64,000 nucleotides of DNA from Escherichia coli (GTDB taxonomy: Bacteria; Pseudomonadota; Gammaproteobacteria; Enterobacterales; Enterobacteriaceae), in the NCBI RefSeq assembly GCF_044647545.1, contig NZ_CP172818.1; one strand, given 5' to 3'. Positions 56,801-59,800 of the stretch are shown in pieces. Positions within the stretch are counted from its first letter, which is position 1. Every line of letters begins with the position of its first letter. A program made the position numbers.

Positions 56801-59800
56801 AAAGGAAACCGGGAAATCCCTGGTTTTTCTGACAAGCAGACGCCATTATTTGTGTCTGCCTATGTTCGTTAATTCGTTCATCAGGAAATTATCTCAATGT
56901 CACGTTATAAAACAGACAATAAACAGCCACGATTTCGTTATTCAGTTCTGGCCCGCTGCGTGGCGTGGGCAAATATCTCTGTTCAGGTTCTTTTTCCACT
57001 CGCTGTCACCTTTACCCCAGTAATGGCGGCACGTGCGCAGCATGCAGTTCAGCCACGGTTGAGCATGGGAAATACTACGGTAACTGCTGATAATAACGTG
57101 GAGAAAAATGTCGCGTCGTTTGCCGCAAATGCCGGGACATTTTTAAGCAGTCAGCCAGATAGCGATGCGACACGTAACTTTATTACCGGAATGGCCACCG
57201 CTAAAGCTAACCAGGAAATACAGGAGTGGCTCGGGAAATACGGTACTGCGCGCGTCAAACTGAATGTCGATAAAGATTTCTCGCTGAAGGATTCTTCGCT
57301 GGAAATGCTTTATCCTATTTATGATACGCCGACAAATATGTTGTTCACTCAGGGGGCAATACATCGTACAGACGATCGTACTCAGTCAAATATTGGTTTT
57401 GGCTGGCGTCATTTTTCAGGAAATGACTGGATGGCGGGGGTGAATACTTTTATCGATCATGATTTATCCCGTAGTCATACCCGCATTGGTGTTGGTGCGG
57501 AATACTGGCGTGATTATTTGAAACTGAGCGCCAATGGTTATATCCGGGCTTCTGGCTGGAAAAAATCACCGGATGTTGAGGATTATCAGGAACGCCCGGC
57601 GAATGGCTGGGATATTCGTGCTGAGGGCTATTTACCTGCCTGGCCGCAGCTTGGCGCAAGCCTGATGTATGAACAGTATTATGGCGATGAAGTCGGGCTG
57701 TTTGGTAAAGATAAACGCCAGAAAGATCCACATGCGATTACCGCTGAAGTGAATTACACGCCAGTGCCTCTTACCCTGAGTGCCGGGCATAAGCAGTGCA
57801 AGAGTGGTGAGAATGACACTCGCTTTGGCCTGGAAGTTAATTATCGGATTGGCGAACCTCTGGAAAAACAACTCGATACAGACAGCATTCGCGAGCGTCG
57901 AATGCTGGCAGGCAGCCCTATGACCTGGTTGAGCGTAATAACAACATCGTTCTTGAGTACCGCAAATCTGAAGTGATTATTGCTCTGCCTGAGCGTATTG
58001 AAGGCAAGGGCGGTCAGACACTTTCCCTGGGGCTTGTGGTCAGCAAAGCAACTCACGGACTGAAAAATGTGCAATGGGAAGCGCCGTCATTACTGGCTGA
58101 AGGTGGCAAAATTACCGGTCAGGGTAGTCAGTGGCAAGTAACGCTCCCGGCTTACCGTCCAGGCAAAGACAATTATTATGCGATTTCAGCAGTTGCCTAC
58201 GATAACAAAGGTAATGCCTCGAAACATGTGCAGACAGAAGTGGTTATTACCGGAGCTGGTATGAGCGCCGATCGCACGGCGTTAACGCTTGACGGTCAGA
58301 GCCGTATTCAAATGCTTGCTAACGGTAATGAGCAAAAGCCGCTGGTGCTGTCTCTGCGCGACGCCGAGGGCCAGCCAGTCACGGGCAGAAGGGCAGATCA
58401 AGACTGAACTAACCTTCAAACCGGCTGGAAATATTGTGACTCGTTCCCTGAAATCCACTCTGTCTTTACGCACCGGAACCCACATCAGGGTGAGTTCACG
58501 CAACACCGAAGCCCTAGGGTATGTTACGACGGAACCATCAGTAGCAAGATTAGTACTACAACAAAACTCATCAGAACCAGATGAGATTGCAAACTCCACC
58601 ACCTAACGACCTAGGTAACGTGGTTGCTGCTGCTGTAAGAAGTTCTACTACACGCAGCTCGCTGGACAAATAATATGAAATATCCAATTACTCCCTCTAC
58701 CTGAATTAATTATCCGAACTAAAGCAACACAAACAAAAACCCTATCAAACAAATCTCACAAACAAAACCGAAAACAACCATACAAAAAACACTCCCCTCC
58801 CCCCCCCCTGGCCCCACCAACCACTCCTCTCTCCAACAGCACTCCTTTCCTACCAAGTCCACCACAACCCACTCACTCCACACACACAAACTCTAAAAGA
58901 GACCAAAAAAAAAACTACTATACGGTGGAACCTACTCACCGGGTAATCCTGTGAACCAGGAGAGCCACCCCAGTTCAGCGACGTTCCGCCAGACACTAAT
59001 GGGATACCGTTGTCCATTTCGGAACTAAAACCAGGGGATAACAGCGCCACGGTTTCTTCGACCCGTGCCGGATGAACGTTGTTTGCGCTCAGCTTCAGGG
59101 AAATACCCCAGTTAACGTAAAAACCGGTGGTGGCGGCACAGCTTACGGCAATCATAGACTACGGCAAAAGATGCCTTATAACAACCCCTGTGACCAGCCT
59201 CACGCCGGAACCGCCGTCATACGGCTGCGGCGTATCACGGCAATAATGTCTGGGAAGAAACAAGCGATGATGGGAAGCAGATTGCACAGTTTACGCGGCG
59301 GTGATGCGCGGAACCTATGAGATACGGCGTCGGCAGGAAATGACCACCTTCGATGCGACAGACTATAACGTTTACCGATAAGGCGATCGCAACCTTCTCT
59401 GGTATTGCAGGTCAGAACAAAATACTATCCTCATCAAACCAAACAACTATAAATTACGGTGTACTGTGCCAACCTTAACCGATCGCCTGCAGTTCAATGA
59501 TATTATGCGATCACGCTGACCGCACACAACTCGGCTTCGTTAAACCTGCAAGAATGACACTGCGACAACGATCAAAATGAGCAAAGGGCCAGGCTATGCC
59601 TTTACCTGACGGCGACCGAGATAAAAACACTAACCCTGTTCCGGGCGATCTTCATTATACACTCACGGCGCAAGTGAAGCGCATAATTCTGGGTGGAAGC
59701 CAAGATGAGCGGAAAGCAGAGTTGCAGTGCTACGATAATGCCGTGCGTGACCGAAAAAATTCATTCATGAGCAGAAAGTGATCAGAACAAGGTCAGTATA

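What the first reader, a model, noticed from the sequence alone, without database searches (positions are those of the whole stretch)
57900..57925. Single-base loss frameshifts the intimin-like adhesin gene upstream of the aberrant region
Translation is continuous up to ...DSIRERRMLAGS and then leaves the expected ...RYDLVERNNNIVLEYRK frame; the sequence cagccctatgacc appears to lack one base. The expected protein continues in the next frame (ORF 57973..58407). This lesion lies in otherwise normal-looking sequence, so it is either an independent inactivating mutation or the leading edge of the corrupted stretch at 58.4 kb.
Basis: seen in the sequence. Interest (0 to 1): 0.35.

Follow-up and report, generated by a model that had tools for sequence, protein, structure and literature searches.

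The report
Artefactual frameshift in E. coli fdeC
The missing base that breaks the E. coli adhesin gene fdeC is really in the sequence, but it is almost certainly an error of how this sequence was put together, not a mutation of the bacterium.

Summary
Compared with full-length fdeC, the window lacks one G between 57917 and 57918 (codon 341, CGC). The reading frame stops at 57976, and the FdeC sequence continues in the next frame (57919-58407).

The lesion is not an ordinary pseudogene mutation:
- None of 4,630 complete E. coli genomes carries it. No metagenome contig carries it either, while 52 carry the intact site.
- It is one of five private small deletions (about 57772, 57917, 57977, 58387, 58392). 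They precede a 1.8-kb garbled, low-complexity stretch (58453-60232).
- There are no private substitutions, and the 12.4 kb upstream is identical to ST648-like genomes.

All these lesions fall inside the interval that E. coli K-12 lacks, where K-12 has IS3 in eaeH. The first deletion sits exactly at K-12's IS3 junction, and the garble ends 7 nt from the other junction.

The rest of the window looks like an ST648-like genome laid on a K-12 template. A 40-kb block is identical to K-12 except in its two IS1 copies. A second private lesion in crl lies 4-13 nt from K-12's IS1 site.

Verdict: a reconstruction or assembly artefact, the leading edge of the corrupted stretch. Low interest.

The parts
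56897..57976 (+). 5' part of fdeC in its original frame. It gives a 359-aa product with the signal/LysM-less N-terminus and the inverse-autotransporter beta-domain, and ends 19 codons after the frameshift.
   Evidence: ORF list. Pfam IAT_beta matches residues 76-340, profile positions 3-270 of 279. 56346-57771 is 100% identical to annotated fdeC of NZ_CP033850.1.
57917..57918 (+). Site of the missing G (codon 341, CGC to C-C). This is the frameshift of the finding.
   Evidence: Pairwise alignment. No genome or metagenome contig carries it.
57919..58407 (+). fdeC continuing in the shifted frame (contains ORF 57973..58407). It ends where two further 1-bp losses shift the frame again.
   Evidence: Translation and alignment.
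57770..57775 (+). Private 3-bp loss (CTG, one Leu of PVPLLT), exactly at the point where K-12 fdeC (eaeH) homology ends and IS3 begins.
   Evidence: K-12 reads CCTCTT|ACCCAGC(IS3), the window CCTCTT|ACCCTGAG, ST648-like CCTCTTCTGACCCTGAG.
57975..57980 (+). Private 3-bp loss (CGT, Arg of SEVIRIAL).
   Evidence: Absent from 4,575 matching genomes and from 51 of 51 metagenome contigs that cover the site.
58385..58394 (+). Two private 1-bp losses 5 nt apart (T and A; GGCATGAAGGAGCAG becomes GGCAGAAGGGCAG).
58453..60232 (.). Garbled stretch of degraded, deletion-rich and partly re-ordered fdeC passenger sequence. It includes C/A-rich junk at about 58720-58920 (C10, A10) and A-rich junk at about 60110-60232 (A27, A11). 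It stands in for about 3.0 kb of fdeC, the intergenic region and the 3' end of the next gene.
   Evidence: No E. coli genome carries it. The ORF products are not on record.
57773..60239 (.). The interval of the ST648-like locus that K-12 lacks (K-12 has IS3 here). Every fdeC/ykgA lesion lies inside it.
   Evidence: K-12 against ST648-like alignment: homology stops at L001 6923 (window 57772) and resumes at L001 10619 (window 60240).
60233..60900 (-). Retained 5' two-thirds of the AraC-type HTH gene (ykgA-like). Its last roughly 60 codons are lost in the junk, so the listed ORF 60061..60933 has a spurious poly-Phe tail.

Best explanation
The missing G at 57917/57918 is an error of sequence reconstruction, not a mutation of the organism. 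The window behaves like the genome of an ST648-like E. coli rebuilt on an E. coli K-12 template, by reference-guided assembly, gap filling or polishing of some kind. Where sample and template are collinear, the sequence is perfect. Where the sample has nothing, K-12 sequence was kept. Where K-12 lacks sequence, because IS3 replaced the 3' three-quarters of fdeC and the end of ykgA, the missing 2.8 kb of sample sequence had to be supplied without a template and was reconstructed badly. That reconstruction is nearly right for about 680 nt from the left anchor, with five small dropped-base errors including this one. It then collapses into noisy, partly low-complexity sequence. Shown here: the lesion, that it is found nowhere else, the indel-only spectrum, the gradient, the coincidence with K-12's IS junctions, and the K-12-identical block. 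Inferred: that a template-based pipeline produced it. Which software and which read type were used is unknown.
For: (1) The lesion is private. 0 of 4,630 genomes carry it, and 0 metagenome contigs against 52 with the intact 33-mer. The neighbouring deletions are likewise absent from 1,560 and 4,575 genomes and from all 52 contigs. (2) Gradient and spectrum. There are five deletion events at 57772-58392 and then collapse at 58453, with no private substitution or insertion. There are no small indels in 45368-57771 (12.4 kb, 100.000%) or in 60233-64000. Expected events in 681 nt from the window's own baseline are 0.06, giving P(>=5) of about 8e-9. (3) All lesions lie in the interval K-12 lacks. 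The 3-bp loss is exactly at K-12's IS3 left junction, where the K-12 string CCTCTTACCC is preserved. The garble ends at 60232 and K-12 homology resumes at 60240. (4) Template signature elsewhere. 5400-21100 is 100.0% K-12. 19544 to about 45370 is identical to K-12 except inside two IS1 copies (61 and 30 differences). The first of these has become a rare IS1 variant, otherwise found best on 6.85-kb plasmids at 99.5%, with no 100% match. That K-12 block is exactly what ST648-like genomes lack. (5) A second private lesion, two 1-bp losses in crl at 1207/8 and 1216/7, lies 13 and 4 nt from K-12's crl::IS1 target site. (6) The garbled stretch and its ORF products exist in no genome or gene catalogue searched.
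Against: No reads, quality values or provenance are available, so the error is inferred, not seen. The lesion lies 536 nt before the heavy corruption, in sequence that is otherwise perfect. It is not in a homopolymer, the usual site of consensus indel errors. Two of the five deletions are exactly 3 bp (in frame), which looks more like selection-filtered variation than noise. fdeC is naturally incomplete in about a third of E. coli strains (84 of 126 complete; PMC6714894), so a real inactivating mutation has a fair prior. I cannot name a pipeline that produces precisely this pattern of gradual decay on the left and an abrupt end on the right.
Confidence: 0.88

Rival explanations
1. A genuine, independent -1 frameshift in this strain's fdeC. 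It would be a recent pseudogenising mutation that truncates the adhesin after the beta-barrel (359 aa instead of 1417) and happens to lie near an unrelated sequencing problem.
For: fdeC is often incomplete in natural E. coli: 67% complete in 126 genomes (PMC6714894), K-12 eaeH::IS3, and split annotations in many genomes. The surrounding 140 nt on each side are error-free.
Against: It is shared by no other genome or metagenome contig. It is one of five private deletions confined to the 681 nt before the garble, with zero private substitutions, while spontaneous E. coli mutations are about ten-fold more often substitutions than indels (established knowledge; 0.1^5 = 1e-5). It lies inside the K-12-absent interval that holds every other lesion.
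Confidence: 0.07
2. The whole 57772-60232 region is real DNA: a locally hypermutated or scrambled fdeC, for example a scar of error-prone break repair. The -1 deletions would then form a real gradient towards a break site, as Pol IV-dependent indels do near double-strand breaks.
For: There is a graded density of small deletions towards the disrupted core. Parts of the core are degraded, re-ordered copies of the Ig-like repeat region, as template switching among repeats could give.
Against: Identity of 65-90% with dozens of indels, A27 and C10 runs and 200-nt C/A-only junk, sitting between flanks that are 100% identical to relatives, has no known biological precedent in E. coli. The boundaries coincide with K-12's IS3 junctions, which are irrelevant to a non-K-12 chromosome. 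The same window has K-12 template signatures elsewhere.
Confidence: 0.03
3. A functional recoding or phase-variation site: programmed ribosomal frameshifting, or slipped-strand switching of the adhesin.
For: Surface adhesins are frequent targets of phase variation (established knowledge).
Against: The site CAGCC[G]CTATGAC has no homopolymer, simple repeat or slippery heptamer. The shifted frame ends after 19 codons, and two more frame changes and a destroyed passenger follow. No other genome has the shifted form.
Confidence: 0.01

Closest known systems
Full-length FdeC (inverse autotransporter / intimin-like adhesin, type Ve secretion), e.g. WP_022645237.1 of E. coli FDAARGOS_497 (ST648-like lineage)
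   Same: Same locus, between ykgM/ykgO/ykgR and the ykgA-like HTH gene and rclCBA. The first 875 nt of the coding sequence (and 551 nt upstream of it) are 100% identical, and 56346-58459 is 99.4% identical overall. The IAT_beta domain is present.
   Different: The window's copy has five small deletions. Its Big_1/Invasin_D3 passenger region is unreadable, and about 1.2 kb of it has no counterpart at all.
E. coli K-12 eaeH pseudogene (fdeC interrupted by IS3, with loss of the 3' part of fdeC and the 3' end of ykgA)
   Same: fdeC is non-functional from the same point. K-12's junction corresponds to window 57772/57776 and 60240, and the window keeps K-12's junction string CCTCTTACCC.
   Different: The window has no IS3. 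It has ST648-like alleles, not K-12 alleles, on both sides (97.1% to K-12 against 100% to ST648-like), and a degraded version of the sequence that K-12 lacks.
Reference-bias / template carry-over artefacts of reference-guided assembly, gap filling and polishing (a class of bioinformatic artefact, not a biological family)
   Same: Template sequence is kept where the sample has none. Large sample-specific insertions are missing at template-defined boundaries (the 6.3-kb island and 585 bp in the aldo/keto reductase gene). Repeats are overwritten by the sample's variant. There are scars at template IS junctions, and poor sequence where the template has no counterpart.
   Different: I cannot identify the software or read type. 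The low-complexity junk and the one-sided decay are not a documented signature of a particular tool that I can cite.

Membership tests
FdeC / inverse autotransporter (type Ve) adhesin gene | N-terminal inverse-autotransporter beta-domain (Pfam PF11924 IAT_beta) | tested here: met
   Window ORF 56897-57973: IAT_beta E = 4e-102, residues 76-340, profile 3-270 of 279. The full-length reference matches at 76-350.
FdeC / inverse autotransporter (type Ve) adhesin gene | C-terminal passenger of tandem Big_1 / Invasin_D3 Ig-like domains in the same reading frame | tested here: not met
   The reference has 9 Invasin_D3 and 4 Big_1 stretches. The window's continuing ORF 57973-58404 has no Pfam hit, and the rest is garbled in all frames. 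As written, the sequence is a broken gene.
FdeC / inverse autotransporter (type Ve) adhesin gene | Orthologous position and near-identity to annotated fdeC | tested here: met
   4,605 genomes cover at least 80% of 56850-58450, with fdeC annotated under the match (best identity 99.4%). Synteny is ykgM/O ... fdeC ... HTH gene, rclCBA.
Genuine pseudogene (heritable inactivating frameshift) | Lesion reproducible in reads or an independent assembly of the isolate, or shared by relatives | tested here: not met
   Not shared: 0 of 4,630 genomes, and 0 metagenome contigs against 52 intact. Read support cannot be tested with these tools.
Genuine pseudogene (heritable inactivating frameshift) | Mutation spectrum and distribution like neutral decay (substitutions outnumber indels, no dependence on another strain's structure) | tested here: not met
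   Five private deletions, no private substitutions, all within 681 nt. All lie inside the interval absent from K-12.
Sequence-reconstruction artefact (template-guided assembly or consensus) | Lesions are private to this record, clustered, indel-only, and grade into unalignable low-complexity sequence | tested here: met
Sequence-reconstruction artefact (template-guided assembly or consensus) | Lesion boundaries and large-scale layout follow a different genome (the template), while the SNPs follow the sample | tested here: met
   IS3 junctions. crl::IS1 site. K-12-identical 40-kb block with only the IS1 copies altered. Island-empty site and aldo/keto reductase deletion with K-12's exact boundaries but ST648-like alleles 2-53 nt away.
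Sequence-reconstruction artefact (template-guided assembly or consensus) | Low coverage or low quality in the underlying reads at the site | not testable with these tools
   No reads, qualities or record provenance are available.
Programmed frameshift / phase-variable switch | Slippery heptamer or simple-sequence tract at the shift site, and an intact downstream frame | tested here: not met
   The site is CAGCC[G]CTATGAC with no repeat. The shifted frame stops after 19 codons, and the downstream gene is destroyed.

The most novel reading that the evidence does not exclude
The lesions are real DNA. On this reading, an ST648-like/K-12 hybrid chromosome (for example from a lab cross or natural recombination with a K-12-like strain) resolved the eaeH::IS3 heterology by error-prone, template-switching repair. 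That repair left a gradient of small deletions, including this frameshift, and a scrambled fdeC passenger region. It would be a fossil of a mutagenic recombination event at a structural heterology.
Probability: 0.03. Interest if true: 0.6.

Novelty: not a real feature. Interest (0 to 1): 0.06.

Why it matters
As biology it does not matter, because the adhesin gene of the underlying strain is most probably intact. As quality control it does matter. The window should not be mined for pseudogenes, novel ORFs (several spurious poly-Lys and poly-Phe ORFs arise at 60.0-60.4 kb), or strain-specific gene content. At least four features of the window are products of a K-12-type template and not of the organism: the fdeC lesions, the crl lesion, the K-12 prophage block and the altered IS1 copies. 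Any other finding from this window, or from the record it comes from, needs the same check.

Tried and rejected
(a) I looked for the source record through exact products of the odd ORFs: 56897-57973, 57973-58404, and the HTH gene with the poly-Phe tail. None is on record. The 90-aa Crl C-terminal ORF is on record, but in contigs with different crl lesions, either a nonsense codon or an A-run frameshift.

(b) I tested whether the C/A-rich junk is fdeC with G and T selectively dropped. Alignment against shuffles shows clear residual order only for 58460-58720 (z about 11). It is weak or absent for 58720-58920 (z = 3.3 in the syntenic region, 0.3 gene-wide) and for 60110-60232 (z = -0.65). The junk is therefore uninformative, and I dropped the idea.

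(c) I asked whether the garble is a divergent natural fdeC allele. No genome matches more than 15% of it, at 88%.

(d) I asked whether it is copied from elsewhere in the window. There were no hits.

(e) I tested whether the window has general indel noise, as an unpolished long-read assembly would. It does not: 10,979 nt at 100.000% and 15,701 nt at 100.0% without a gap.

(f) I first counted the 3-bp loss at 57772 as a random private deletion. It turned out to be the K-12 junction string.

(g) Phase variation or programmed frameshifting: there is no repeat or slippery site.

(h) A natural recombinant between K-12 and an ST648-like strain. This cannot explain the junk, the indel scars next to K-12 IS sites, or the IS1 copies replaced in situ by a rare variant.

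Full report
**What is there.** The window is E. coli chromosome. The gene starting at 56897 (+) is fdeC (called eaeH in K-12), the intimin-like inverse-autotransporter adhesin. It lies between ykgO/ykgM/ykgR and an AraC-type HTH gene (ykgA-like), an aldo/keto reductase remnant and rclCBA. The closest full-length gene is fdeC of NZ_CP033850.1 (FDAARGOS_497; 1417 aa; locus L001). Window 56346-57771 is identical to it.

**The observation.** Alignment shows reference AGCCGCTATGACC against window AGCC-CTATGACC, so the G of Arg codon 341 is missing between 57917 and 57918. The original frame then reads ...RMLAGS-PMTWLSVITTSFLSTANLK* and stops at 57976. The FdeC sequence YDLVERNNNIVLEYRKSEV... continues in the next frame from 57919 to 58407. 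The break is at profile position 270 of 279 of the IAT_beta domain. As written, the gene would give a barrel without its last strand and without any passenger.

**Is it shared?** No.
- All 4,630 complete E. coli genomes that match the 86 nt around the site differ from the window by at least that one gap (best identity 98.9%).
- An exact scan of 241 million metagenome records found the deleted 32-mer 0 times and the intact 33-mer in 52 contigs.

**It is not alone.** Up to 58452, the window differs from the closest reference by five events. All are deletions:
- CTG after 57772.
- The G at 57917/8.
- CGT after 57977.
- T at 58387.
- A at 58392.

There is also a single substitution (58226), which is the common His/Arg polymorphism also present in K-12-type sequences.

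The other deletions are private too. The genome searches found neither 3-bp deletion (0 of 1,560 and 0 of 4,575 matching genomes), and none of the 52 metagenome contigs carries any of the five. could only test lineages similar enough for megablast, which is a limit of that test.

From 58453 the sequence collapses:
- First comes deletion-riddled fdeC.
- About 200 nt of C/A-only junk follow (GC skew -0.8, with C10 and A10 runs).
- Pieces of the Ig-repeat region follow at 65-90% identity, with many insertions and deletions, a 1.2-kb gap and a degraded duplicated piece.
- A-rich junk (A27, A11) comes last.
- At 60233 the sequence returns abruptly to 99.9% identity.

Nothing like this stretch exists in 5,426 genomes, and the products of its ORFs are in no gene catalogue searched.

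**Statistics.** In sequence that can be compared with ST648-like genomes outside this interval (21.7 kb) there are only two small private indels. That predicts 0.06 events in the 681 nt before the collapse, against 5 observed (Poisson P about 8e-9; Fisher P = 5e-7). Five of five private changes being indels is about 1e-5 under a normal mutation spectrum. The 10% indel share used there comes from established knowledge of E. coli mutation accumulation and is not a tool result.

**Why the lesions are where they are.** K-12 carries IS3 in eaeH and has lost the rest of fdeC and the 3' end of ykgA. I aligned K-12 (L002, L062) with the ST648-like locus. K-12 homology ends at L001 6923, which is window 57772. 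It resumes at L001 10619, which is window 60240.

The window's 3-bp 'deletion' is L001 6924-6926, exactly at that junction. The three sequences there read as follows:
- K-12: CCTCTT|ACCCAGC (IS3).
- ST648-like: CCTCTTCTGACCCTGAG.
- Window: CCTCTT|ACCCTGAG, which keeps the K-12 junction string and then continues as the ST648-like sequence.

The garble ends at 60232, 7 nt before K-12 homology resumes. So every lesion, the finding's frameshift included, lies inside the interval K-12 lacks. For a chromosome with ST648-like alleles, K-12's IS3 junctions should be irrelevant, unless K-12 was used as a template to build the sequence.

**Independent signs of a K-12 template in the same window.**
1. 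Windows 1-5500 and 45368-64000 are ST648-like, with 0-1 mismatches per segment.
2. In contrast, 5400-21100 is 100.0% K-12, and 19544 to about 45370 is identical to MG1655-type K-12 except inside two IS1 copies (61 and 30 differences).
3. This 40-kb block (CP4-6 prophage plus pao genes) is precisely what FDAARGOS_497 lacks; it has 427 nt there.
4. The first IS1 copy has become a rare variant. Its best matches (99.5%) are mostly IS1 copies on 6.85-kb plasmids, with no 100% match, and ordinary IS1 is at most 93% identical. This is what cross-mapped reads from a repeat would do to a template. It is not what a K-12-derived block would look like.
5. crl carries two private 1-bp deletions at 1207/8 and 1216/7, present in 0 of 5,404 genomes. 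They lie 13 and 4 nt from the target site (TGAAGGTA, window 1220-1227) of the IS1 that interrupts crl in K-12.
6. The window lacks a 6.3-kb island at 56346 and 585 bp of the aldo/keto reductase gene at 61162/3. The boundaries are exactly K-12's, yet ST648-like alleles lie 2-53 nt from these junctions. No genome has the island-empty junction with these alleles (best 98.4%).

**Mechanism proposed.** Shown: the coincidences above.

Inferred: the sequence is an ST648-like isolate reconstructed on a K-12-type reference. Collinear parts were re-called correctly. Uncovered template was retained. Large sample-only insertions were dropped. Template-only IS1 in crl was removed, leaving small scars. The sample-only 2.8 kb at eaeH::IS3 was filled from poor evidence. 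That fill is accurate near the left anchor, with occasional dropped bases of which the G at 57917/8 is one, and it decays to noise further in.

I cannot say which program or read type did this. The one-sided decay and the low-complexity junk remain unexplained in detail.

**Rivals.**
- *A genuine independent frameshift (0.07).* It has a fair prior, because fdeC is complete in only 84 of 126 genomes (PMC6714894) and the immediate flanks are clean. It requires that one of five co-located, same-type, private lesions has a different origin from the rest.
- *Real local hypermutation or a repair scar (0.03).* It fits the gradient, but not the junk, the K-12-defined boundaries or the template signatures elsewhere.
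- *Programmed frameshift or phase variation (0.01).* It fails at sequence level, because there is no repeat or slippery site and the downstream gene is destroyed.

**Comparison with the known.** The gene is fdeC by domain, identity and synteny. As written it is a broken copy. It resembles the K-12 eaeH pseudogene only because K-12's structure shaped the reconstruction. The phenomenon belongs with reference-bias artefacts, not with any biological system.

**Verdict.** Of the interpretations offered, 'leading edge of the corrupted stretch' is right. The lesion is not a real feature of the organism (confidence about 0.9), and its interest is low except as a warning about this record.

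Noticed in passing
window 1151-1550 (crl); lesions at 1207/1208 and 1216/1217: crl is frameshifted by two single-base deletions 9 nt apart (TAGGCCC to TAGCCC, TATTCG to TATCG). 0 of 5,404 E. coli genomes carry them. They lie 13 and 4 nt left of the 8-bp target site (1220-1227) of the IS1 that interrupts crl in K-12. This is probably a scar of removing the template's IS1, not a real crl mutation.
   Followed up: yes
window ~5500-45370: A 40-kb block (CP4-6 cryptic prophage at thrW plus paoABCD) is identical to E. coli K-12, including its IS30, IS5 and ISEc19 copies. Both flanks are 100% ST648-like, and ST648-like genomes have only 427 nt here. This looks like template sequence retained where the sample gave no data.
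   Followed up: yes
window 21700-22465 and 33150-33950: The two IS1 copies inside the K-12-identical block are the only places where that block differs from K-12 (61 differences including a 6-nt gap, and 30 differences). The first is a rare IS1 variant, best matched (99.5%, never 100%) mostly on 6.85-kb plasmids. The second is only partly converted. This is consistent with the sample's IS1 reads overwriting the template.
   Followed up: partly
window 56346/56347: A 6.3-kb segment present in the closest relatives (flavin oxidoreductase, hydrolase, two LysR regulators, two aldo/keto reductases) is absent. The boundary is the same as in K-12, but ST648-like alleles lie 53 nt to the left and 34 nt to the right. 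No complete genome has this junction with these alleles (best 98.4%).
   Followed up: partly
window 61162/61163: 585 bp of the aldo/keto reductase gene are missing, with exactly K-12's deletion boundaries. K-12's second, 91-nt deletion just downstream (window 61211-61301) is not shared; there the window follows the ST648-like sequence.
   Followed up: partly
window 58453-60232: The aberrant stretch itself. It contains degraded fdeC with dozens of indels, C/A-only junk at 58720-58920 (GC skew -0.8; C10, A10) and A-rich junk at 60110-60232 (A27, A11). It also has a 1.2-kb gap relative to fdeC and a degraded second copy of reference positions 9338-9536 at 59542-59727. It generates spurious ORFs with poly-Lys and poly-Phe runs (59993-60373 +, 60061-60933 -).
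   Followed up: yes
window 60233-60900 (-): The AraC-type HTH gene downstream of fdeC (ykgA-like) has lost its last roughly 60 codons and its stop codon in the junk. The intergenic region between it and fdeC is missing.
   Followed up: partly
L002 38103-38113 / L062 (K-12 eaeH::IS3 left junction): In K-12 the IS3 left end abuts fdeC through a short shared string (CTT/ACCC), so the exact junction is ambiguous by a few bases. That shared ACCC is why the window's junction looks like a clean 3-bp deletion.
   Followed up: partly
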